Source: an uncultured delta proteobacterium (GTDB lineage Bacteria; Desulfobacterota; Desulfomonilia; Desulfomonilales; Desulfomonilaceae). Taken from it: a DNA stretch of 64,000 nucleotides. The stretch lies in NCBI GenBank assembly GCA_963789265.1, contig CAWBKB010000001.1, forward strand, positions 224,001 to 288,000. Reading direction: 5' to 3'. Below are positions 29,210 through 40,236 of this stretch, in pieces. Both the position numbers and the translations under genes were made by a program. The notes under the pieces are model-generated. The model saw only the letters and a list, made by a program, of their open reading frames with translations, had not been told where the DNA came from and searched no databases. Position 1 is the stretch's first letter. Each line of letters starts with the position of its first letter.

Positions 29210-30683
29210 CTACAAGTTTTCGGTTTCCAAACGCTGTCCATCCGTAGCATATCGGCCTTCAAACACCCCCAAAACGCCTTTCTTCAACAGAATCTTATGC
29301 TTGCGTATTTTATTGTATAGTGTGGCGCGAGATATGTTCAGATATCTGGCGGAATCGGTGATGTTACAATTATTGCTCCTGAGGGCGTTGAGAATGCAGC
29401 TCCGTTCCTGGATTTCCAGGCCCGTTCCTGTTCGTGCTGTTCGCCTCTCAGGGAAGTCATTCTCTTCCGAAGCCGGGGTCCACCTTATTTTGGGGTTGCC
29501 CAAAAGGACTTGCCTCACGTCATTAATTGTGACCTCGTTTTGTGAAGCATTGAGGCTGATCCGGTTGGTAACATTGCGAAGTTCACGCACGTTTCCCGGC
29601 CAATCGGTACTGCATGAGGAGCTCGATTATGTCTGAGGGAAAAGACAGATCTATGCCCTCTCTTCTCATTAAATGCTCTATCAGAAGTGGGATATCTTCC
29701 TTATGAAATCTCAACGGAGGGACCCTTATTTCTATGACACTCAGCCTGTAATACAGGTCTGGTCGGAATTTTCCTTGCCTGCAAAGTTCATCGAGGTCAC
29801 GGTTCGTAGAGGCAATCATGCGGGCATTTATTGGTAAAAGCTTCGTGCCTCCTATCCTTTCGTACTCTTTCTCTTCAAGAACGCGCAACAGTTTGCTCTG
29901 CAATCGCATGTCCATGTCGCCGATTTCATCAAGAAGGATTGATCCTCCGGCAGCCAACTCGAATTTGCCCTTTTTCTTGGAAACCGCTCCGGTAAAGGCG
30001 CCTTTCTCATAACCGAACAGCTCTGATTCCAGTAGCTCGTTGGGAATGGCCGTGCAATTGATTTTGACAAACGGCCGAAACGACTTGTTCAGGCTCTCAG
30101 AATGGAAAGCGCTTGCCAGAATCTCCTTACCTGTGCCTGTTTCACCGATTATTAGTATTGGGTAAAATGTGCGTGCCGCCCGCTTGCACTGATCCAGCAT
30201 CTCCGTGACAATCTTGCTCTCTCCCACATAATCTTCAAAAGTGTAGCTTGAGTCGACCCTGGCTATTGCACTGTAGGCGTCCTTCATAAAGCGATGTTCG
30301 GCATCATCCAAACTGGATAGTATTCTCTTCAGAGTAGTCAAATTCTTGAAAAGAACCATGCCCAGCACCCCTATGACTTCTCCCTTAGAATTTATGGGGA
30401 TAAGATTGGTCATACATTTTCTGCCCTTTATGATCACCATGATCCCCATCATGGCTTTTCCCGTTTGCAGCACATGATCGAAGGGAGATAAGGGATCGAA
30501 ATTCCTGATAGGCTGACCAATGACGGCTTCCGGAACCTTGAACGTCTGTACTGATCCAGAGCTGCAGTGGATAAGGCGGCCGTTCCGGTCAACAAGAACC
30601 GCGGCATCAAACGCCGTATCCATGAATTTATCCAGTACCCCGCCGCGGGTGTGTATCTCCTCCAGTGTAAAGTCAAAATACAT
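29210..30683 (-). CDS. PAS-domain sigma54-dependent activator with Fis HTH; frameshift near 29605
   Basis: GETGTGKE, ESELFGYEKGAFTGA, LDEIGDM, FRPDLYYRL, WPGNVREL split by one extra C, LNISRATLYNKI. Confidence 0.9.
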
Positions 30684-30876
30684 ATCGCCTCCGCGTCTAC
30701 CATGTACCGACAGAAGTGTTTTATGGTCCGTACGATATCCTACAACTACTGTCAATCGATATTTTCCATTTTGAGTCAAGTGTATAGACAAGTGTCTTTC
30801 TCCTTAACAGCCGGAATAACAAGATCCACGCTCGGGATGATCTGAATCCAGTGTCTAATGAGACATTCGGCGAGGT

Positions 30877-30892
30877 TGGCATACCGCTTGCT
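30877..30892 (+). promoter_or_regulatory. Sigma54 (-24/-12) promoter
   Basis: TGGCAT-ACCGC-TTGCT matches TGGCAC-N5-TTGCW, 45 nt before the PhlG-like gene and divergent from a sigma54 activator. Confidence 0.85.
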
Positions 30893-30937
30893 GTTCTTTC
30901 ACACTTATCATTCGAATCCGCTGTCAGGAGGGAGAAT

Positions 30938-31750
30938 ATGAAGCAAGATTTGACGGCGCGCGAAAAGGAAAGGCCCTATTCCAAGTATTTCAATCGGCCA
31001 TTGGCCCCTGTCCCGAAGGAAATTCTTGATTTCTTGCAACAAGGGCCTATCGATCCGACTTTGGCGACACCGATAGACCAGAGAAACGATCTGCTGAAAC
31101 CCGGTTATCTTCCAGCCGAGATGGGCTACTGCATCATGCCGGACGGTTCCGGCTATGTATCCATGCTGACCAGAATGCCGGGTGTCACATCCGAAATGAT
31201 CGACTGGTGGTTTGCCTGGCACGGTTTGGAGGGGCTTCGCTACAAAATATGGGATCCGGACGATCATTTTGATAGCCATGTAGCCCCGCATGATCTGACT
31301 CGCCGTCTGGATGCCAGTCTGACCGTCCAGCAGAGAAACTGGAACACAACTGACATTGTCCTCGAGGACATAGGAACCGGCAGCGTCGAATTGGCCATTT
31401 CTTTCATGTCGCCTGAAGATTTTGGTTATGACATGGACAGATTCAGGGCGCCGAATGTGCTGACTGCAGTCAACGCCAACGGTTCATTGGTGGGTCCTGG
31501 AATCGCCATGGGGACCTTTACCCATTTCGCACGTGAAATCCCAGGTGGGATCGAATTGAGAAGTCGTTTCTATATGGGGTGGCACATTATCGACAAAGGA
31601 CCGGTGAAGGTAGCGGAGCAGATACCGCTGGAGCTGACAAAGGGACTGGCCTACCATTGCTCGAAGGAGTACAGCAATTTGGCTGCCATCCTGCCGATGG
31701 TATACGCAGAGAATATAGGTAGGATCGACAGAATGGACGATTTCAACTAG
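30938..31750 (+). CDS. PhlG/phloretin-hydrolase family C-C hydrolase
   Basis: E.GYC..PDGSGYV....MPGVT.EM.DWWFAWH...RYKIW.P.DH, LEDIG, ELRSRF and HC.KEY.NLA, giving the Zn-ligand pattern H/E/H/E. Confidence 0.8.
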   Translation: MKQDLTAREKERPYSKYFNRPLAPVPKEILDFLQQGPIDPTLATPIDQRNDLLKPGYLPAEMGYCIMPDGSGYVSMLTRMPGVTSEMIDWWFAWHGLEGLRYKIWDPDDHFDSHVAPHDLTRRLDASLTVQQRNWNTTDIVLEDIGTGSVELAISFMSPEDFGYDMDRFRAPNVLTAVNANGSLVGPGIAMGTFTHFAREIPGGIELRSRFYMGWHIIDKGPVKVAEQIPLELTKGLAYHCSKEYSNLAAILPMVYAENIGRIDRMDDFN

Positions 31751-31898
31751 CGAAGCCGAACCGTCCGTGGAGGGTGAAGCATTCGGGGTCGTGCTCAATC
31801 AAACGCCGGGGACCTGTGGGCACTTGAAGTCGGCTCTCTGCCTGAGACCCCGACTCCCAGTATCAGTTTGATCGAAAACCGAACAGCGAGAGGTTTCA

Positions 31899-33194
31899 AT
31901 GGCTACGGTTGCTGCGAGATCCGAATCAAGATCAAAGACCGGTATGAACTTTGGCGGATGGGGCTGGGGAGTAATCTTTTTCTCCATGCTCATGTACTTC
32001 AACTATGTCGGTTGGTCTGCCGACGGTTTGAACATTTTTACCACGGCCTTTGGAAAGGAGCATGGCTGGGATCCAGCGGTACTGCTCTCGTTGGCCACCC
32101 CTGGAGGGTTGATGGGAGTCGTCGGCGCATTCGTCTTCGGACAGATCATCATGAAAAAAGGACCCAGGTTTGTGACGACCGTTTGCCTGGCGTTCGCCGG
32201 TCTTTCCGTAATCTGGTTCGGTAGAATCAGCTCACTCCCCGAATTCGCAGTCGCTTTCGCTGCCATAGGATTTTTTGGAAGCGGGTTCGGGTTCATAGCA
32301 CCCGGTACCTTGATTACCAACTGGTTTCCAACAAAGAAAGGAATAGCCTTGGGATGGGCAACCATGGGCATGCCAGCCGCAACAGCCTTGTTCGTTCCTC
32401 TCATAGCTTTCCTGTTCAGCAGTCTGGGCATCGCAAATGCCGCCGCTTTATATGGGATTATCATGATTGCTCTGGCAGTATTCGCCTTCTTCTTCGTCAA
32501 GGATTTCCCGGAGCAGATCGGATGCTGCCCCGATAATGAGACGATCTCTCAGGACGAGATTCAAGCGAACCTGAAGGAGATCGAAGGCTACGAGAGCCCT
32601 TTCACGCTGAAAAGGCTCATGAAAGATAGAGAAATGTGGCTCACTTCCCTGGGATTCGGCTGTCTTTGGATGGTTACATTAGGAATTGTCGTCCAGTTAG
32701 TGCCACGGCTAATGAGCATAGGTTTTGACCAGCAGACAGCGATCCTCTTGCTTGCTTCGGCTGCTGTGTGCGCACTGCCTGGAAGTGTCCTCTGGGGTTG
32801 GTTGGACCAGAAGTATGGAACCAAGCCCGCTGGTATGTTGTATGCCTGCTGGTATGTACTGACCCTCATTCTGTTGATTGCTCAGACGAGAAACACAGCG
32901 CTTACCTTTGCCACGGTGGTTTCTGTTGGAATCGGACTCGGTGGCATAAAGAACCTGATTACCTCTATGATCGGATCAGTGTACGGTCGGTACGATTTCA
33001 CTGCTGCTAACCGCATTATCATTCCCATTTCGATCATCGTCCGTACTCTTGGATTTGCGGTCATGGGAATCGCAATGGCTTCAACCAATGGATTCTCCGG
33101 CGCTTACGCCGCCTTTATCGCCGTGGACATTATCGGGTTGATCCTGATTTTCTTTATTTCTCCCGTCTGTAAAGGGAAACTGGCCGCGACTTGA
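31899..33194 (+). CDS. MFS transporter
   Basis: ~12 hydrophobic segments, NWFPTKKGIALG, GWLDQKYG. Confidence 0.85.
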   Translation: MATVAARSESRSKTGMNFGGWGWGVIFFSMLMYFNYVGWSADGLNIFTTAFGKEHGWDPAVLLSLATPGGLMGVVGAFVFGQIIMKKGPRFVTTVCLAFAGLSVIWFGRISSLPEFAVAFAAIGFFGSGFGFIAPGTLITNWFPTKKGIALGWATMGMPAATALFVPLIAFLFSSLGIANAAALYGIIMIALAVFAFFFVKDFPEQIGCCPDNETISQDEIQANLKEIEGYESPFTLKRLMKDREMWLTSLGFGCLWMVTLGIVVQLVPRLMSIGFDQQTAILLLASAAVCALPGSVLWGWLDQKYGTKPAGMLYACWYVLTLILLIAQTRNTALTFATVVSVGIGLGGIKNLITSMIGSVYGRYDFTAANRIIIPISIIVRTLGFAVMGIAMASTNGFSGAYAAFIAVDIIGLILIFFISPVCKGKLAAT

Positions 33195-33525: not shown

Positions 33526-33575
33526 TTGACAAATATATATATTTGGGCAAATAATGTACTAAACGGTTGGTACAT
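33526..33575 (+). promoter_or_regulatory. Sigma70-type promoter and palindromic operator of the TetR gene
   Basis: TTGACA at 33526-31, AATAAT at 33550-55, 22-bp palindrome ATGTACTAAACGGTTGGTACAT at 33554-33575. Confidence 0.7.
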
Positions 33576-33581
33576 GCGAGG

Positions 33582-34184
33582 ATGAAAGTGGAGGCCGCCA
33601 CAAAAGGTGAAAAAACGAAAGCCAGGGTTCTGGAAACGGCCAGGCGACTGGTCAACGAGAAGGGGTTTTGCAACACAAGCATCAACGACATCATCCAGGC
33701 AACCGGGGTGAAAAAAGGCAATCTGTATTTCCATTTTTCCAGTAAGGAAGAACTGAGCCTGGCAATCCTGGAAGAGGCCGGCAAACAGTTCTCAGCCTTT
33801 CTATTGAAAAGCCTGCAGGGTGAACGTCCCCTGGACAAGCTGTCCAACTTTCTCGACGCGGTCTTTGAAAAGCATAGAAGGGCGAGGTTCGTCGGAGGCT
33901 GACTGTTCGGTAATACCGCTCTGGAAATGAGCGACTCGAACCCTCGTTTATCGGAACTTATAGGGACGGTCTTTGAACGCTGGACCGGACTCGTTGCAGA
34001 AGTGCTGCGTCAAGCTTGTGATGCTGGGGATCTGACCATGAGTGTCCCTCCGGAGCTGTTTGCCAAGCACATTGTTGCCACCATCGAGGGAGGAATCATG
34101 ATGTCGAGGCTGAGCAAAAATGGAGATGATCTTCGAGACTGTTTGAACTCCCTTCGGGTAGCCTTGGGAATAGAGCCGCAGTAG
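33582..34184 (+). CDS. TetR/NemR-like transcriptional regulator, predicted selenoprotein (200 aa), Sec at TGA 33900-33902
   Basis: HTH (GVKKGNLYFHFSSKEEL) and C-domain are in one frame separated only by TGA: FVGG-U-LFGNTALEMS matches the family motif GCLxGNxxxE. A hairpin follows. Confidence 0.8.
33905..33941 (+). promoter_or_regulatory. SECIS-like hairpin of the TetR gene
   Basis: Upper stem CGCTC-TGGAAAT-GAGCG begins 14 nt after the TGA; lower stem GTTCGG/TCGAAC. Confidence 0.6.
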
Positions 34185-34412
34185 AAGCTTGGTCGTCAAG
34201 CATTCAGGCGGCAATGTCCTGGAGTTCAAGGCTGACCCAATATGTTTGAGCATTAAGAGGAAACCCCATGGCACTGCTACGACGTCGAGAACCGGCTAAA
34301 TCGCATCGCAATTTTTGAAGGAGAAATCAGGGTACGAATGTGGCCAGTGCCCCAACTCCTTGCGCTTTTTAACAATTGGTCGATCATTTGCGAGAGTGCG
34401 GGGAAAATTACT

Positions 34413-35282
34413 ATGAACCTCAATTTTGGAAGAAATCGTTGGCTTTCTTTTCTATTCGGAGTGATGTTTGGGGTGATGATCTTGGTCTGTGGAATAGAGC
34501 TGCGTGCTGGAACTGCCGCGGCGGAGATCTCGTTCGACGATTACGCAGCCGTTCTTAAATCCCATGTTGATGATCACGGGATGGTCAATTACAAAGGGTT
34601 GAAGGCGAATCGCAAACCTTTGGACGATTTCATCTCGTCTCTATCTCGTCTCGATCCCAAGTTCTACGATGGTTGGAACGACAAGGAGAAGATAGCATTC
34701 TGGATAAATGCATATAATGCTTTGACTCTCAAAGCTATTGTCGACCATTACCCCATCGAGGCCTCGTTTCTCAAATCCTTTGTTTACCCCAAAAACAGCA
34801 TCCGCCAGATACCCGGAGTGTGGGACAAGCTCACGTTTGCCGTGATGGGCAGTAACATGACGCTGGACGGCATTGAGCACAGCACACTCCGAGCGAAGTT
34901 CAACGAGCCCAGAATTCATATGGCCTTGGTATGCGCGGCGATGGGATGTCCCCCTTTGAGAAACGAACCATATACTGGTGCGAAATTAGACGCTCAACTG
35001 GGCGATCAGGCGGCTAAGTTCTTGAGAAACCCGGAAAAATTCAGAATAGACCGTAATAACAGCAAAGTGAATCTCTCATCGATTTTCAACTGGTTCGGCC
35101 AGGATTTCGTAAAGACGTATGGTACCGTCAAGGAGTTTTCAGGGTTTTCAAAAAAAGAGAGAGCTGTGCTCAATTTCATAAGCCGTTATCTTGCTCCTGC
35201 GGACAGAGCCTTCCTTTTGAAAAGCGGCTTTACCATCGAATATCTGAAGTATGACTGGTCCTTGAACGAAAGGAAAATTTAG
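34413..35282 (+). CDS. DUF547-domain secreted protein
   Basis: Signal peptide; AFWINAYNA, TLDGIEH, EPRIHMALVCAAMGCPPL, YDWSLNE. Confidence 0.9.
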   Translation: MNLNFGRNRWLSFLFGVMFGVMILVCGIELRAGTAAAEISFDDYAAVLKSHVDDHGMVNYKGLKANRKPLDDFISSLSRLDPKFYDGWNDKEKIAFWINAYNALTLKAIVDHYPIEASFLKSFVYPKNSIRQIPGVWDKLTFAVMGSNMTLDGIEHSTLRAKFNEPRIHMALVCAAMGCPPLRNEPYTGAKLDAQLGDQAAKFLRNPEKFRIDRNNSKVNLSSIFNWFGQDFVKTYGTVKEFSGFSKKERAVLNFISRYLAPADRAFLLKSGFTIEYLKYDWSLNERKI

Positions 35283-35415
35283 GGCTTTCCGGCATCGATC
35301 TTTTTTGTGCCCGTTTGTCCCTTGAAGGCTAACCGGCTTGCAACAAGAGCCCTTGCTGAAGCTTTCGGGAACGGGAACTTGCCTTCGAGGAAATGATTTC
35401 GCGGTTGGAGGGGGA

Positions 35416-36009
35416 ATGGAAGCATTGATGAATCACGATGCATCGACGTCGCGGAAACAGGAAGCAGCCCCCGAAAAGTGGGTTGACGCTCATGGAGACT
35501 ATTTGTTTCGGTTTGCAATGAGTAGGCTTCAGGATCGCACAATCGCCGAAGATCTGGTCCAGGAAACGTTCTTGGAAGCTCTTCGCTCTCAGCAATCATT
35601 TCAGGGCAGGGCCTCGGAAAGGTCGTGGATGGTTGAGATCCTTCGCCACAGAATAGTGGACTTTATCCGGAAGAGGATTCGAGAGAAGGTGGACCACGAC
35701 GACGGATCATTTGAGAACCTGTCGGAGGAGTATTTCGATGACAAGGGAAGTTGGGCCCTAAAACCTTCGATGTGGGGAAATAACCCGTTAGAAGTCCTAG
35801 AGGAAAAGGAATTCTGGTCTGTGTTGCTCCAGTGCCTGTCAGGTCTTTCCCGCAGTGCGGCTAATGCTTTTGTGCTTCGAGTACTGGAAGAGTGGCCCTA
35901 CGAGGAATTGTCCGAAAACATGAGCATTTCAACAAACAATCTAGGAGTCATCCTGTACCGGGCTCGGATGCAGATCAGAGGTTGCTTGGAGTCGAACTGG
36001 ATCAAGTGA
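35416..36009 (+). CDS. ECF sigma factor
   Basis: YLFRFA..RL.D...AEDLVQETFL region 2; N..VILYRAR region 4. Confidence 0.9.
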   Translation: MEALMNHDASTSRKQEAAPEKWVDAHGDYLFRFAMSRLQDRTIAEDLVQETFLEALRSQQSFQGRASERSWMVEILRHRIVDFIRKRIREKVDHDDGSFENLSEEYFDDKGSWALKPSMWGNNPLEVLEEKEFWSVLLQCLSGLSRSAANAFVLRVLEEWPYEELSENMSISTNNLGVILYRARMQIRGCLESNWIK

Positions 36010-36522: not shown

Positions 36523-38820
36523 ATGGATGGTACAGCCGAACAATATGGAATGGTCTCCGGATCAAGGCCCAAATTAAGACTTGCAAAAATCATTCTGGTG
36601 GTCGTCATTGCATTGACTCTGTTGCTGTGCCTCTTCCTCTTACCGGTTAAGGATTATTTGATCGTCGCTCTTGAGTGGACACGAGGACTCGGCGTTTGGG
36701 GCCCCTTGTTTGTAGCGGCGTTTTACGTCGTGGCAGCGGTACTTTTCCTACCCGGCTCTATTATCACGCTGGGTGCCGGGTTCCTGTTCGGAGTCCCAGT
36801 GGGTATGCTCACAGTTTGGATCGGGGCGAACCTTGGAGCGTATGCTGCGTTCCTCGTGGGACGAACTGTCGCACGTGAATGGGTCGCACAAAAAGTAAAG
36901 GGAAACGCAAAGTTCGCTGCTATTGACGAAGCACTGGGCAGAGAAGGGTTCAAAATAGTGCTGCTGTTGCGATTGAGCCCGGTGTTTCCGTTCGACCTTC
37001 TTAACTATGCGCTCGGAATTACGAAAGTCTCTTTCGCAAATTATGCCTTGGCCTCACTCATAGGAATGCTTCCCGGCACGCTTATGTACGTTTACTTTGG
37101 CTCGGCAGCAAGATCTCTCACAGAGCTAGCTGCAGGCAAAGTGGAAACCGGGTCAGCCGGCCAAGTGTTCTTTTGGTTCGGACTGGCTGCCACAATTGCA
37201 GTTGCGCTGTTCGTCACAAGAATTGCCCGCAAGAGCTTGAAAGTAGCGGACGCGTCATCTGCTGTTGCAAAAACACCGCAAACACTGATCCCACCTCTTT
37301 TGGATGGCGGGGTCGAGGTTATCCCTGATGACAGGTACAACCGAGAGCTGGTATCTAACGTGCATCCGACCGGTTGGAGCAATCCCCAACCCGCACAACG
37401 CTACAACCTGGTAGTTCTCGGGGCTGGGACGGCTGGGCTCGTTACTGCGGCAGGTGCAGCGGGGCTGGGAGCGAAAGTTGCCCTGGTGGAACGGCATCTC
37501 ATGGGAGGCGATTGCCTCAACTACGGATGTGTGCCATCCAAAGCTCTGATTCGATCATCCAGGGCGTTTGCAGAGATACAGGCGTCGCAAAATTACGGAA
37601 TCGAGGTTCCAGAAGGGGCGTCAATCAATTTTTCGGCGGTTATGGAGCGATTGAGAAGACTCCGAGCAGGAATCAGCCATCATGATTCTGCACAGCGTTT
37701 CAAGGACCTGGGCGTGGATGTTTTCCTCGGGCATGCCGCATTCACCGGCCGTAACACGATAGAGGTCGACAATAAGTCCCTGCATTTCAAGAAGGCGGTC
37801 ATAGCTACCGGCGCCCGGGCCATGCACCCGGGAATCAAAGGCCTGGCCGAGGCGGGGTTTCTCACGAATGAGACTGTGTTTTCTTTGACCGAAAGGCCTT
37901 CGCGACTCGCCCTGATTGGAGGCGGTCCAATAGGCTGTGAACTGGCGCAGGCGTTCCAGAGATTAGGCAGTCAGGTGATTCTTTTCCACAAGAATGACCA
38001 CATACTGGATCGCGAGGACGCGGATGCTGCGGAAATCATTCAGAACAGATTCATCAAAGAGAGGATTCGACTCATTCTGAACAGTGACCTGAAAGAAGTC
38101 GAGACGGTCAACGGCGAAAAGGTGATCCATTTCGAAGTTAGCGGAAAGAGAGACTCCGTCGCTGTGGACGAGATTCTAGTTGGAGCAGGCCGAGCGCCGA
38201 ATGTTGAGCATCTCAACTTGGAGGCCGCTGGAGTTCAATATGATACTCGCAAGGGTTTTTTTGTAGATGATTACTTACGGACCACAAATCGTGCCATTTT
38301 TGCGGTCGGTGATATTTCCATGAGTTATAAGTTTACCCACACCGCAGACGCGGCTGCTCGCATAGTGATTCAGAACGCCCTTTTCAAGGGATCCAAGAAA
38401 CTCAGCGCCCTGACTGTTCCGTGGTGCACCTACACCGATCCGGAAATCGCCCATGTCGGGATGTATGAGAGAGATGCGATAAAGCGCGGAATAGCCGTCG
38501 ACACATTCGTCAGACCTCTGGTGGAAGTTGATAGACCAATACTGGATGGCGAAGCAGACGGATTCGTAAAAGTTCATGTGAAAAATGGCACGGATAAGAT
38601 CCTCGGGGCCACAATAGTGGCTGCTCACGCCGGGGAAATGATAAGCGAACTCACCTTGGCCATGGTGGGAAAGCTGGGGCTCGGGACGATATCGGGAGTC
38701 ATCCATCCCTACCCAACGCAAGCAGAAGCGATCAAGCAGGCTGCGGACGCGTACAGTCGAACCAGACTCACCCCGCTTGTCAAGACGCTCTTTACGAAAT
38801 GGCTTTCCTGGACTCGTTGA
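36523..38820 (+). CDS. TVP38/VTT (DedA-family) membrane domain fused to a flavoprotein disulfide reductase (MerA/Lpd-like)
   Basis: LLRLSPVFPF..LNYALG in the N-terminal part; GAGTAG, GGDCLNYGCVPSK, GGGPIG, HPYPTQAE; no C-terminal Cys-Cys pair. Confidence 0.9.
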   Translation: MDGTAEQYGMVSGSRPKLRLAKIILVVVIALTLLLCLFLLPVKDYLIVALEWTRGLGVWGPLFVAAFYVVAAVLFLPGSIITLGAGFLFGVPVGMLTVWIGANLGAYAAFLVGRTVAREWVAQKVKGNAKFAAIDEALGREGFKIVLLLRLSPVFPFDLLNYALGITKVSFANYALASLIGMLPGTLMYVYFGSAARSLTELAAGKVETGSAGQVFFWFGLAATIAVALFVTRIARKSLKVADASSAVAKTPQTLIPPLLDGGVEVIPDDRYNRELVSNVHPTGWSNPQPAQRYNLVVLGAGTAGLVTAAGAAGLGAKVALVERHLMGGDCLNYGCVPSKALIRSSRAFAEIQASQNYGIEVPEGASINFSAVMERLRRLRAGISHHDSAQRFKDLGVDVFLGHAAFTGRNTIEVDNKSLHFKKAVIATGARAMHPGIKGLAEAGFLTNETVFSLTERPSRLALIGGGPIGCELAQAFQRLGSQVILFHKNDHILDREDADAAEIIQNRFIKERIRLILNSDLKEVETVNGEKVIHFEVSGKRDSVAVDEILVGAGRAPNVEHLNLEAAGVQYDTRKGFFVDDYLRTTNRAIFAVGDISMSYKFTHTADAAARIVIQNALFKGSKKLSALTVPWCTYTDPEIAHVGMYERDAIKRGIAVDTFVRPLVEVDRPILDGEADGFVKVHVKNGTDKILGATIVAAHAGEMISELTLAMVGKLGLGTISGVIHPYPTQAEAIKQAADAYSRTRLTPLVKTLFTKWLSWTR

Positions 38821-38858
38821 GGCGAGATCCAATAGCCGATACTGTCAGGAGGAGATTC

Positions 38859-39192
38859 ATGGAAACCTATTATGACCCCAAAGACCTTCCGAAATTCGCT
38901 GACATCGGAGAAGAAGCTCCCGAGTTGGCAAAGAAGTTCTTCGATTACTATGGAGCCGTGTTTGCCGAAGGTGAACTCACAGAACGAGAAAAGGCTTTGA
39001 TCGCCCTGGCTGTAGCACATGCCGTTCAATGTCCGTATTGCATAGACGCCTATACCCAGAACCTGTTTGGAAAAAGGGGCCAGTCTCGGTGAAATGACTG
39101 AGGCCGTTCACGTGACCACGGCCATCAGGGGCGGCGCTTCGCTTGTACACGCGACTCAGATGAGGAAAATTGTCAAGAAGGTTTCCATGTGA
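38859..39192 (+). CDS. AhpD/CMD-family peroxidase-like protein of ArsS neighbourhoods; frameshift near 39060
   Basis: REKALIALAVAHAVQCPYCIDAY, then after one extra A: TCLEKGASLGEMTEAVHVTTAIRGGASLVH. Confidence 0.85.
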
Positions 39193-39207: not shown

Positions 39208-40236
39208 ATGCCTCAGGAACCAACGTCGGCCGACAAGGCGTCAAGCGTTGAAAGCTCTCTAGCCTGTAGAGTGGAACCTTTTGCAGGAACTCTGGCCAGG
39301 CACGGACTTGAACTGAAGAGAGGCCATGCCAACACGCTGCAAATCAACGTTGGTTTGATATGCAACCAGGCTTGCCGGCATTGTCATCTCGAAGCTGGAC
39401 CCAACCGGTCAGAAATGATGAGCCGTGACACGATAGACGAGGTTGTTGCCTACGCCAAAAGGGCACGTTTTCAGGTCGTGGATATCACTGGCGGCGCTCC
39501 AGAAATGAACCCCCAACTGGCCTATCTCATTGAAATGATAGCCCCTCTGACTCCAAGACTGATGCTCCGGGCGAATCTCACTGCGTTGGCTGAACAGAAC
39601 TCGCATCAATTAATAAAGCTGTGCAAGATTCACCGGGTGGTGATTATGGCTTCGTTTCCTTCAGTCAGTGCTTCCCAGACTGACTCTCAGAGGGGCACTG
39701 GCGTGTTGGAGAGGAGCATCGCCATGCTAAAGAAGCTCAATGACCTGGGTTACGGGCCGGAGGGAACGGGTCTGGAACTCAATCTTGTTTCCAATCCCAC
39801 CGGTGCGTTTCTGCCGGTACCCCAATCCCAGGCAGAAAAGAAGTTCAAAGCCGACCTTGGACGAAAATGGGGACTTGTCTTCAACAATCTCTTCACATTC
39901 GCGAATGTCCCGCTGGGAAGATTCCTTGCCTGGCTCAAGGCATCAGGAAACCTTGAAGCATATATGCAGAAGCTCTCAGGAAGCTTCAATCCGTGTACGG
40001 TCGAGGGTTTGATGTGTCGGACGTTCGTATCTGTGGATTGGGAAGGCTATCTATACGACTGCGATTTCAACTTGGCCAGGGGAGCCGGCCTTGCCGGTGG
40101 CAAGCGACATGTCTTAGAGATGGATGGTTTGCCGGAACCTGGAACGCGAATACCCACAGGCAATCATTGTTATGCCTGCACAGCCGGGTCAGGCTTTACG
40201 TGAGGCGGGTCCATTGCGACCCAGGTGGGTCCCTGA
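39208..40236 (+). CDS. arsS: ArsS-like (arsenosugar-type) radical SAM selenoprotein, Sec at TGA 40201-40203
   Basis: TLQINVG..CNQACRHCH, DITGGAPEMNP, LMCR..SVDWEG.LYDCDFN; HCYACTAGSGFT-U-GG corresponds to the family motif CTAGxGSSCGG. Confidence 0.85.
40218..40231 (+). promoter_or_regulatory. SECIS-like hairpin of arsS
   Basis: GACCC-AGGT-GGGTC, 14 nt after the TGA. Confidence 0.65.

What the first reader, a model, noticed from the sequence alone, without database searches (positions are those of the whole stretch)
33526..34184. Selenocysteine-containing TetR/NemR-like transcription factor
Seen: the HTH half and the ligand-domain half are in one frame separated only by TGA (FVGG-U-LFGNTALEMS), giving a normal 200-aa TetR. 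A two-stem hairpin follows, and a 22-bp palindrome overlaps the gene's own promoter. Known: NemR-like repressors sense electrophiles and HOCl through the Cys of the GCL motif, while most characterised selenoproteins are redox enzymes, not DNA-binding regulators. Inference: a highly reactive Sec-based redox, electrophile or metalloid sensor. Under Se limitation only a truncated HTH would be made, so repression could also be coupled directly to selenium supply. I cannot verify whether this family is already catalogued.
Basis: partly seen in the sequence, partly recalled or inferred. Interest (0 to 1): 0.85.

Follow-up and report, generated by a model that had tools for sequence, protein, structure and literature searches.

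The report
Selenocysteine-containing TetR repressor gene
A DNA-binding repressor gene that looks broken by a stop codon most likely makes a whole protein with selenocysteine at the position where related repressors use a cysteine to sense chemical stress, and no selenium-containing regulator of this family turned up in the catalogues I checked.

Summary
Window 33582-34184 (+) is one 200-codon TetR-family gene with a single in-frame TGA at 33900-33902.

The TGA is most likely a selenocysteine (Sec) codon:
- It lies on a Cys that is invariant in 120 of 120 database homologues.
- That column aligns with Cys106 of E. coli NemR, the residue that senses reactive chlorine.
- Orthologues in 10 other species genomes of the same family (Desulfomonilaceae by record titles) have TGA wherever the column is covered. 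The sister family has TGC or TGT.
- A second TetR subfamily (31-36% identity) has TGA at the same column in at least 14 genomes.
- A 5-bp hairpin starts 14 nt after the TGA. It forms in 25 of 26 TGA forms and 2 of 33 Cys forms, with one U-A/C-G swap.
- The spacing matches the hairpins of two known selenoprotein genes of this genome, ArsS and SelD.
- tRNA-Sec, SelA, SelB and SelD are present.

The gene has its own promoter, overlapped by a conserved palindrome that is the only strong site of its kind in the genome. It leads an operon with DUF547, a DedA-FAD oxidoreductase, an AhpD-like protein and a Sec-containing ArsS.

Sensing by the selenol is inferred, not shown. I found no TetR selenoprotein in two recent catalogues or in NCBIfam.

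The parts
33526..33555 (+). Sigma-70-type promoter, TTGACA-N18-AATAAT
   Evidence: It matches 11 of 12 consensus positions. A TTGACA box at the same distance from the operator appears in most of the orthologous loci printed.
33554..33575 (.). Palindromic operator (ATGTAC-N10-GTACAT) overlapping the -10 box and the likely transcript start
   Evidence: 18 of 22 positions are self-complementary. The site is conserved upstream of orthologues. It is the only strong site in the 6.06-Mb genome, scoring 24.5 against 16.6 for the next best. Binding by the protein was not tested.
33582..34184 (+). TetR-family repressor gene, 200 codons including one Sec codon (start ATG 33582, or GTG 33588 behind GAGGA)
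   Evidence: Translation. Pfam TetR_N and TetR_C_13. AlphaFold model with mean pLDDT 95.1. Best fold matches are the TetR structures 3QBM, 3BRU and 4YZE.
33900..33902 (+). UGA read as selenocysteine (U109 in P0001 numbering; residue 107 from ATG 33582)
   Evidence: It aligns with a Cys invariant in 120 of 120 homologues and with NemR Cys106. TGA is kept at this column in other genomes.
33917..33933 (+). SECIS-type hairpin: 5-bp stem CGCUC/GAGCG, 7-nt loop UGGAAAU, starting 14 nt after the UGA
   Evidence: Four pairs are invariant. The fifth pair is C-G in 12 sequences, U-A in 12, U-G in 1 and unpaired in 1, out of 26 TGA forms. The full stem forms in 25 of 26 TGA forms and 2 of 33 Cys forms. 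ArsS and SelD of the same genome have the same geometry.
33905..33941 (+). Outer (lower) stem of the two-stem hairpin, 33905-33909 with 33937-33941
   Evidence: It is part of the minimum-energy fold. It is only partly conserved, with 72% of cells paired.
34338..35282 (+). DUF547 protein, first gene downstream
   Evidence: Pfam PF04784, E 1.2e-27. The same gene follows the TetR in L081 and L083. By my own reading of the DNA printed, it also follows in L033.
35338..36009 (+). ECF-type sigma factor
   Evidence: Pfam Sigma70_r2 and r4_2. NCBIfam TIGR02937 at 90.6 bits, cut-off 42.9. It was not seen in the orthologous loci examined.
36523..38820 (+). Fusion of a DedA/VTT membrane domain with an FAD-dependent pyridine-nucleotide-disulfide oxidoreductase
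   Evidence: Pfam VTT_dom, Pyr_redox_2 and Pyr_redox_dim. NCBIfam NF004991 at 841.6 bits, cut-off 620. The same fusion lies downstream of the TetR in L080, L081, L083 and L091.
38799..39192 (+). AhpD/CMD-like protein of family TIGR04169, here split by a frameshift near 39058-39075
   Evidence: NCBIfam TIGR04169 at 126.1 bits, cut-off 120, on the first 97 residues. tblastn places residues 1-92 and 87-130 of the intact L080 orthologue in two different frames.
39208..40236 (+). Radical SAM selenoprotein ArsS (TIGR04167), with its Sec codon at 40201-40203 and its true stop at 40234-40236
   Evidence: NCBIfam TIGR04167 at 374 bits, cut-off 300. Read-through gives AGSGFT-U-GG.... The same TGA and hairpin occur in 5 of 5 orthologous loci.

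Best explanation
This is an intact gene for a homodimeric TetR-family repressor in which UGA at 33900-33902 is decoded as selenocysteine. SelB with Sec-tRNA(Sec) would be recruited by a small hairpin that starts 14 nt downstream.

The repressor binds the palindrome that overlaps its own -10 box. It thereby shuts off its own gene and the genes transcribed behind it. The core set is DUF547 and a DedA-FAD disulfide oxidoreductase. In most loci an AhpD-like protein and the selenoprotein ArsS follow.

The selenol sits at the N-terminal cap of a helix in the ligand domain, at the position of NemR Cys106. My reading is that it reacts with an oxidant, a soft electrophile or a metalloid. The adduct or selenenyl species would shift the ligand domain, release the DNA and turn the operon on.

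Shown here: the gene, the conserved TGA/Cys alternation, the hairpin, the Sec machinery, the promoter and operator, and the synteny.

Inferred: Sec insertion itself, binding to the operator, co-transcription, the selenol as sensor, and the nature of the signal.
For: Cys/Sec column
- The TGA lies on a Cys invariant in 120 of 120 listed homologues. It aligns with NemR Cys106.

Conservation of the TGA
- In the 70 genomes of the same order, which holds a single family, 11 genomes including this one carry the 60-78% identical orthologue. All 12 rows that cover the column have one TGA. The 2 rows without a stop do not cover it. The exact column was checked in L014-L018, L028-L033 and L045.
- In the sister family, 26 of 52 genomes have hits and none has a stop. 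The orthologues there use TGC or TGT.
- A second subfamily has TGA at the same column in 13 checked loci of the same family and in one locus of another family, L063. Four loci have Cys.

Translation past the TGA
- The half after the TGA is as conserved as the half before it, with many silent changes. For L016 the 88 codons after the TGA split into 33 identical, 27 synonymous and 28 changed.

Hairpin
- All 5 pairs form in 25 of 26 TGA forms, counting G-U. They form in 2 of 33 Cys forms, and in 0 of 33 with Watson-Crick pairs only.
- One pair swaps between U-A and C-G.
- The third codon position that closes the stem is C in 26 of 26 TGA forms and in 8 of 33 Cys forms.
- In the same genome, ArsS has UGA-N14-stem and SelD has UGA-N13-stem, both with G-rich loops.

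Machinery
- tRNA-Sec scores 71.3 bits and ARAGORN calls SeC with anticodon tca. SelB scores 386 bits, SelA 594 bits, and SelD 360 bits with its own TGA.
- SelB was found in 8 of 10 other TGA-form genomes tested.
- TGA is otherwise the commonest stop: 388 of 720 long ORFs on contig C1.

Structure
- The model has pLDDT 95.1, and residue 109 directly precedes helix 110-118.

Promoter and operator.

Synteny
- In 7 of 7 loci whose contig reaches far enough, a Sec-form ArsS lies downstream on the same strand. These are G000, G085 C203, G085 C622, G026, G020, G013 and G014.
Against: - There is no protein or RNA evidence. Sec insertion is inferred from sequence only.
- The hairpin folds no better than shuffled sequence. 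No Rfam family matches it.
- The stem lies in codons for a conserved peptide (A-L-E-M/L-S/G-D). In a wider set, 10 of 69 Cys forms can also form all five pairs. Hairpin potential alone therefore does not mark Sec.
- The TGA forms of subfamily 1 are one clade of related genomes. The counts are not independent events.
- SelB was not found in G026, which is 94% complete in 1100 contigs, nor in the genome of L120.
- In the window a sigma-factor gene and a 513-nt gap separate the TetR and DUF547 genes from the oxidoreductase. Co-transcription of the whole set is uncertain here.
- ArsS occurs in 40 of 69 genomes of the family, most of them without this TetR. The regulator is not a fixed part of that cassette.
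- NemR's partner residues are absent, so NemR's chemistry cannot simply be carried over.
Confidence: 0.8

Rival explanations
1. Sec is inserted, but it is a ligand-contacting or metal(loid)-binding residue rather than a redox switch. One example would be a selenolate that binds As(III), methylarsenite, Hg or selenium species and so ties the ArsS-type cassette to its substrate.
For: The cassette downstream carries NCBIfam's arsenosugar names: TIGR04167, TIGR04169, and in L081 TIGR04282 and TIGR04283. The fused oxidoreductase also scores against MerA models, though below their cut-offs. A second Cys, C189, is kept in 8 of 8 Sec forms and 59 of 85 Cys forms. Subfamily 2 has Cys at -4, and often at -1, next to the Sec, which looks like a chelating or selenylsulfide pair.
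Against: No arsM or ars resistance gene turned up among the neighbours examined. Subfamily 1 has only one Sec per monomer and no nearby Cys in the sequence. The Cys-form orthologues sit in unrelated contexts.
Confidence: 0.25
2. The TGA is a true stop. The gene is a pseudogene or a strain-level nonsense mutant.
For: Gene callers see two ORFs. One more distant TGA form, L120, lies in a genome where SelB was not found and lacks the conserved hairpin, so plain nonsense codons at this column may occur.
Against: The TGA is kept at the same codon in 11 genomes of 9 genera for subfamily 1. Both halves are kept in frame with many silent changes. The hairpin is kept.
Confidence: 0.03
3. Split gene: an HTH-only protein of 106 residues (from ATG 33582) and a separate 85-residue C-terminal protein that starts at ATG 33927.
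For: An ATG-initiated ORF 33927-34184 exists.
Against: The eight codons between the TGA and that ATG encode the most conserved motif of the family, LFGNTALE, with G112, N113, A115, L116 and E117 invariant or nearly so. The ATG is the Met of ALEMS and is Leu or Val in most orthologues. Pfam TetR_C_13 spans the TGA.
Confidence: 0.03
4. The UGA is read through by something other than Sec, such as near-cognate Trp, Cys or Arg insertion, or a local recoding signal.
For: Nothing in the sequence shows which residue is inserted.
Against: The aligned residue is always Cys. The genome has complete Sec machinery and other selenoprotein genes with the same hairpin geometry. TGA is the main stop codon of the genome.
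Confidence: 0.05

Closest known systems
E. coli NemR (TetR family; PDB 4YZE)
   Same: Same fold: Foldseek rank 8, TM 0.74; phmmer E 1.5e-9. The Sec aligns with Cys106 in a shared G-C-L motif. A review passage describes Cys106 as the reactive-chlorine sensor (PMC7464077). It is an autoregulated repressor that leads its operon (gene order).
   Different: Sec instead of Cys. Identity is only 24%. NemR Lys175 aligns with Arg178, Cys21 with Val26 and Cys116 with Ser119. The target genes are not nemA and gloA.
TetR regulator Caur_2221 of Chloroflexus aurantiacus (PDB 3QBM), with no characterised function in the entry title
   Same: It is the closest solved relative: E 2.3e-30 by sequence, Foldseek rank 1 with TM 0.86. 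It has the same V-G-G-C motif at the aligned position (alignment).
   Different: Cys, not Sec.
Catalogued bacterial selenoproteins that have Cys homologues, for example the radical SAM protein TIGR04167 (ArsS) of the same operon
   Same: In-frame UGA on a Cys column, a hairpin within the coding region shortly after the UGA, and a patchy Sec/Cys distribution. TIGR04167 is listed as a selenoprotein family in the table of PMC13188914 (passages).
   Different: Nearly all catalogued families in that table are enzymes, carriers or redox proteins. This one is a DNA-binding repressor.
FmdB-family 'putative regulatory protein' selenoprotein (TIGR02605)
   Same: Among the passages returned for my search terms, it is the only entry carrying the word 'regulatory' in the selenoprotein tables of PMC9312934 and PMC13188914.
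   Different: By the name of its NCBIfam model (CxxC_CxxC_SSSS) it is a small Cys-rich protein, not a helix-turn-helix repressor. I did not compare the sequences.
TetR-like regulator of Methanosarcina with an in-frame amber codon (MA2902)
   Same: A TetR-family gene interrupted by a recodable stop codon and kept in two species (PMC1914089, passages).
   Different: The codon is UAG, a candidate for pyrrolysine, in an archaeon. The authors say it is unclear whether pyrrolysine is inserted. I did not compare the position.

Membership tests
Bacterial selenoprotein gene (SelB/SECIS-dependent UGA recoding) | In-frame UGA aligned with Cys in homologues | tested here: met
   120 of 120 homologues have Cys. 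TGC or TGT occurs in the sister family.
Bacterial selenoprotein gene (SelB/SECIS-dependent UGA recoding) | UGA conserved at the same codon in orthologues of other species, with the downstream frame under selection | tested here: met
   11 genomes of 9 genera. Silent changes are common after the TGA.
Bacterial selenoprotein gene (SelB/SECIS-dependent UGA recoding) | Stem-loop shortly after the UGA with G in the apical loop (the criteria are recalled, not read here) | tested here: met
   A 5-bp stem starts 14 nt after the UGA, with GG invariant at loop positions 2-3. The geometry matches ArsS and SelD of the same genome. Folding energy alone is not significant.
Bacterial selenoprotein gene (SelB/SECIS-dependent UGA recoding) | tRNA-Sec, SelA, SelB and SelD in the genome | tested here: met
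   All four score over their curated cut-offs.
Bacterial selenoprotein gene (SelB/SECIS-dependent UGA recoding) | Selenium found in the polypeptide | not testable with these tools
   This needs 75Se labelling or mass spectrometry.
TetR family of transcriptional repressors | N-terminal TetR helix-turn-helix domain plus a helical C-terminal ligand and dimerisation domain | tested here: met
   PF00440 at 52.8 bits (cut-off 24) and PF16925 at 79.1 bits (cut-off 27). The model has nine helices. TetR structures fill the top of the fold search.
TetR family of transcriptional repressors | Binds a palindromic operator at a regulated promoter | tested here: inconclusive
   A conserved palindrome overlaps the -10 box. 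Binding cannot be tested here.
NemR (E. coli-type electrophile and reactive-chlorine sensor) | Sensor residue at the Cys106 position | tested here: met
   The TGA aligns with Cys106.
NemR (E. coli-type electrophile and reactive-chlorine sensor) | Lys175 partner of the sulfenamide switch, and Cys21/Cys116 for electrophiles (roles as told in PMC7464077) | tested here: not met
   These align with Arg178, Val26 and Ser119.
NemR (E. coli-type electrophile and reactive-chlorine sensor) | Controls nemA- and gloA-type detoxification genes | tested here: not met
   The downstream genes are DUF547, a sigma factor, a DedA-FAD oxidoreductase, an AhpD-like protein and ArsS.
Named NCBIfam TetR equivalogs (ScbR, AcuR, MtrR and others) | Score over the curated cut-off | tested here: not met
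   The best scores are 101.1 bits against a cut-off of 150 (ScbR) and 91.5 against 247 (AcuR). No selenoprotein-specific TetR model was hit.

The most novel reading that the evidence does not exclude
This would be a natural selenoprotein transcription factor. A selenol at the sensing position of a TetR repressor gives an anaerobe a faster, reversible switch for oxidant, electrophile or metalloid stress. Both the repressor and an enzyme of its own operon (ArsS, and in some species a PrdB-like protein) need Sec, so operon output would also depend on selenium supply. The same Cys-to-Sec change appears in a second TetR subfamily next to acyl-CoA genes, which suggests that selenol-based sensing is a recurring solution in this family of bacteria.
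Probability: 0.35. Interest if true: 0.9.

Novelty: new variant of a known kind. Interest (0 to 1): 0.8.

Why it matters
Known selenoproteins are almost all redox enzymes or carriers. A repressor with Sec at its sensing position would extend selenium biology to gene regulation.

It would also give a natural Sec/Cys pair, since orthologues have Cys at the same site. That allows a direct test of what a selenol adds to a thiol switch in sensitivity, reversibility and resistance to over-oxidation.

There is a practical side. Gene callers cut these genes in two, so at least 25 regulator genes in this bacterial family are probably mis-annotated. The regulator also gives an experimental handle on the poorly understood ArsS, AhpD-like and DedA-oxidoreductase cassette.

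Tried and rejected
- **Rfam.** No family matched at gathering score over the whole window. At E up to 10 around the TGA only a chance snoRNA hit appeared.
- **Folding energy of the hairpin.** It does not differ from shuffles, so it was not used as evidence.
- **treekit tree.** The sandbox killed the job. I replaced it with MAFFT and FastTree.
- **First automatic pick of operators.** It took wrong sites in 5 of 10 loci. In the redone pick, 3 of 10 are still out of register, so the matrix is noisy. Only the gap between 24.5 for the gene's own site and 16.6 for the next site is used.
- **Regex hit in L162.** This is a false hit at another place and was dropped from the counts.
- **L120.** It has TGA at the column but a different hairpin, and SelB was not found in its genome. 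I do not count it as a Sec form.
- **Sequencing runs.** No RNA holder is listed. Four DNA runs of one study hold parts of the stretch. Parts of the stretch have no cover in the contigs laid.
- **Earlier findings of this scan.** A search by sequence found nothing.
- **NemR-type chemistry.** A Cys106-Lys175 sulfenamide was considered and set aside because Arg occupies the Lys position.
- **Literature.** Full-text searches for 'TetR family' + selenoprotein + Sec-containing found 0 papers. TetR + selenocysteine + UGA found 15 papers, 14 listed. I opened one. By title and abstract start none reports a natural Sec-TetR.
Full report
**1. The observation**

TGA at 33900-33902 joins ORF 33567-33902 to ORF 33927-34184 in one frame. 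Read-through gives a TetR protein of 200 residues from ATG 33582. GTG 33588 behind a GAGGA is an alternative start. I use the numbering of P0001, which begins at 33576, so the recoded residue is U109.

Pfam places TetR_N at residues 19-64 and TetR_C_13 at 85-188, so the C-terminal domain runs straight across the TGA. An AlphaFold model built with 52 Cys-form homologues is confident, with mean pLDDT 95.1. It has nine helices, and residue 109 directly precedes helix 110-118. Its best structural matches are TetR regulators: 3QBM, 3BRU, and E. coli NemR 4YZE at rank 8.

**2. Is the TGA a selenocysteine codon?**

Five lines of evidence agree.

*(a) The column.* All 120 best database homologues have Cys there, in G-C-[LIVP]-x-G-N. 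The same column is Cys106 of E. coli NemR.

*(b) Conservation of the TGA.* I ran six-frame searches of species-representative genomes.
- The order of the window's genome consists of one family, called Desulfomonile or Desulfomonilaceae in the titles of matching public records.
- Among its 70 genomes, 11 including this one carry an orthologue at 60-78% identity. Every one of the 12 rows that cover the column has exactly one TGA. Two further rows are fragments that do not reach the column.
- I checked the codon itself in L014-L018, L028-L033 and L045.
- In the sister family of the same class, 26 of 52 genomes have hits and none has a stop. The orthologues there (44-52% identity) use TGC or TGT.
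- In an even sample of 401 genomes of the phylum, TGA forms appear only in the window's family and in one genome of another family, G157.
- Among the best 80 loci from all species representatives, 69 have Cys, 9 are the same Desulfomonilaceae TGA forms, and one (L162) was a false regex hit.
- The last, L120, is a doubtful extra TGA form. Its hairpin differs, and SelB was not found in its genome.

*(c) Selection after the TGA.* The 88 codons behind it are as conserved as the 99 before it, and silent differences are about as frequent as amino-acid changes. For L016 the downstream codons split into 33 identical, 27 synonymous and 28 changed. For L028 the split is 44, 26 and 18. L029 and L032 score lower downstream in this ungapped count.

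*(d) The hairpin.*
- In 26 TGA forms, a 5-bp stem begins 14 nt after the UGA and closes a 7-nt loop with an invariant GG.
- Four pairs never vary. The fifth is C-G in 12 sequences, U-A in 12, U-G in 1 and unpaired in 1. That swap couples a silent third position of an Ala codon to a Ser/Gly first position.
- All five pairs form in 25 of 26 TGA forms and in 2 of 33 Cys forms. With Watson-Crick pairs only, the figures are 23 of 26 and 0 of 33.
- The silent position that closes the stem is C in 26 of 26 TGA forms and in 8 of 33 Cys forms.
- Two selenoprotein genes of the same genome have the same layout: ArsS with UGA-N14-stem-loop and SelD with UGA-N13-stem-loop.

*(e) Machinery.*
- tRNA-Sec, SelB, SelA and SelD all score over their curated cut-offs, and SelD itself carries a TGA.
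- SelB was found in 8 of 10 other TGA-form genomes tested. It was not found in G026, a 94% complete genome in 1100 contigs, or in the genome of L120.
- TGA is not reassigned in general. It ends 388 of 720 long ORFs on contig C1.

**3. Cautions**

- The hairpin's folding energy is ordinary (z -0.41), and no Rfam model matches it.
- The stem lies in codons for a conserved peptide. In the wider set, 10 of 69 Cys forms could also form five pairs. Latent hairpin potential probably came before the Cys-to-Sec change and may have eased it.
- The TGA forms are relatives. A FastTree tree was built from 123 distinct sequences. Seven duplicates and all partial sequences were dropped, the Sec column was masked, and the tree was rooted at its midpoint.
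- In that tree the eight full-length subfamily-1 TGA forms are one clade with support 0.995, nested among Cys forms. The counts above therefore reflect one old change that has been kept, not many events.
- The only public contig over the site reads TGA without differences, but it may come from the source sample.
- There is no protein or RNA evidence.

**4. A second subfamily**

A TetR subfamily only 31-36% identical to this protein has TGA at the same column. That holds in 13 checked loci of the same bacterial family and in L063 from another family. One further TGA row, G085 C44, was not fetched. Four loci have Cys.

- Most TGA forms here have a Cys four residues before the Sec, and often one directly before it.
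- The Cys forms lie as a clade inside the TGA forms.
- Its operator is a different palindrome.
- In the eight loci examined, the neighbours that Pfam could name are mostly acyl-CoA genes: enoyl-CoA hydratase, a CoA ligase and a 2-hydroxyglutaryl-CoA dehydratase component.

Sec at this sensing column is therefore not a one-off.

**5. Regulation and targets**

The gene has a near-consensus promoter, TTGACA-N18-AATAAT, at 33526-33555. The palindrome at 33554-33575 overlaps the -10 box and the likely start of the transcript. The same arrangement is seen upstream of Sec-form and Cys-form orthologues. A noisy matrix built from the orthologous sites finds the gene's own site at 24.5 and nothing above 16.6 elsewhere in 6.06 Mb. 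The regulon is therefore probably the local transcription unit.

No terminator-like site was found on the + strand between 33300 and 40800. Downstream on the same strand lie:
- DUF547;
- an ECF sigma factor;
- a fusion of a DedA/VTT membrane domain with an FAD-dependent disulfide oxidoreductase;
- an AhpD-like protein of family TIGR04169;
- the radical SAM selenoprotein ArsS, TIGR04167.

In all 7 loci whose contig reaches far enough, a Sec-form ArsS lies downstream on the same strand. Six of the seven were examined gene by gene:
- The AhpD-like gene directly precedes ArsS in five of them, and the DedA-FAD oxidoreductase is present in five.
- No AhpD-like gene was called in L091.
- G020 (L082) has no oxidoreductase.
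- DUF547 is present in three of the six, counting the window.
- The seventh locus, G085 C622, was checked only for the position of ArsS.

In G088 the TetR gene is followed by DUF547 and the DedA domain, although no ArsS was found in that genome. I read those two genes from the DNA printed and did not scan them.

ArsS itself occurs in 40 of 69 genomes of the family, most of them without this TetR. The six Cys-form loci examined have unrelated neighbours, one of them a PrdB-like gene. The regulator was therefore recruited to this cassette within Desulfomonilaceae.

**6. Most likely mechanism**

The protein is an autoregulated repressor whose selenol, at the N-cap of a helix in the ligand domain, is the reactive site. 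The best-studied relative uses the same position as its sensor. According to a review passage, NemR Cys106 senses reactive chlorine through a bond to Lys175 (PMC7464077).

Here Lys175 is Arg, and NemR's other functional cysteines are missing. The chemistry after the first reaction must therefore differ. It could be a selenenic acid, an adduct, or a selenylsulfide with Cys189, which is kept in 8 of 8 Sec forms.

The target genes are a disulfide oxidoreductase and a peroxidase-like AhpD protein. On that basis I favour thiol-reactive oxidant or electrophile stress as the signal, at about 55%. A metalloid ligand is second, at about 25%. Neither was tested.

Without Sec the repressor would be cut before its dimerisation domain, and ArsS would lose its last 11 residues. 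This remains speculation.

**7. What is known**

The table of prokaryotic selenoprotein families in a May 2026 review holds no TetR or other helix-turn-helix regulator in the passages returned for 'TetR', 'regulator', 'DNA-binding' and 'transcription'. Its only 'regulatory' entry is the FmdB family (PMC13188914; likewise PMC9312934).

- The supplementary family list of the deep-Sep paper has no TetR entry (PMC12013277, 4 files searched).
- NCBIfam release 20.0 has no model that this protein passes.
- Full-text searches found no report.
- A 2007 survey lists a Methanosarcina TetR gene with an in-frame amber codon, which is a parallel for pyrrolysine and not for Sec (PMC1914089).
- Earlier notes of this scan report a Sec codon in a LuxR-type regulator of Chloroflexota, and a Cys-type TetR heading an operon with PrdB-like and AhpD-like selenoproteins. 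I did not test the first. The second fits what I saw next to some of these TetR genes.
- I could not see subscription-only papers or most supplements, so 'not catalogued' holds only for these sources.

**8. Verdict**

This is a real and conserved gene, and very probably a selenoprotein. It is a Sec variant of a Cys-sensing TetR repressor and is not a member of NemR proper. The novelty class is a new variant of a known kind. Interest is high because it moves Sec into transcription control and offers natural Sec/Cys pairs for testing.

Noticed in passing
window 39208-40236: The ArsS-type radical SAM gene (TIGR04167) runs past TGA 40201-40203, giving AGSGFT-U-GG..., to a true stop at 40234-40236. 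The same TGA and a conserved hairpin occur in 5 of 5 orthologous loci. This is a known selenoprotein family, but ORF listing cuts it short.
   Followed up: yes
window 38799-39192: The AhpD-like gene (TIGR04169, with a CPYC motif) is split by a frameshift near 39058-39075. The orthologue in L080 is intact at 130 residues. This is either an assembly error or a real defect.
   Followed up: partly
L082 6733-7947 (-), and L045 after the TetR: A PrdB/GrdB-like gene of about 405 codons directly follows the Sec-TetR and has an in-frame TGA at codon 154 (LLVPV-U-PFC). It would be the third selenoprotein gene of that operon. 153-codon ORFs with the same family match also follow the TetR gene in L091 and in the Cys-form locus L089.
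   Followed up: partly
L024, L025, L027, L034-L037, L040-L044, L047, L063: A second TetR subfamily has TGA at the same column. Most members also have a Cys at -4 and often at -1. It has its own palindromic operator and lies near acyl-CoA metabolism genes.
   Followed up: partly
G000 contig C9 565-1467: The genome holds a second Sec-form ArsS copy at the start of a small contig. Its neighbours were not examined.
   Followed up: no
L120 (its genome is G509): A 50%-identical relative has TGA at the same column but a different hairpin, and SelB was not found in its genome. It may be a plain nonsense codon, or the genome bin may be incomplete.
   Followed up: partly
window 30851-33194: Upstream on the same strand lie a DAPG-hydrolase-like gene (PF18089) and an MFS transporter gene. 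A sigma-54 activator gene lies on the other strand at 29583-30791. No link to the TetR unit was seen.
   Followed up: no
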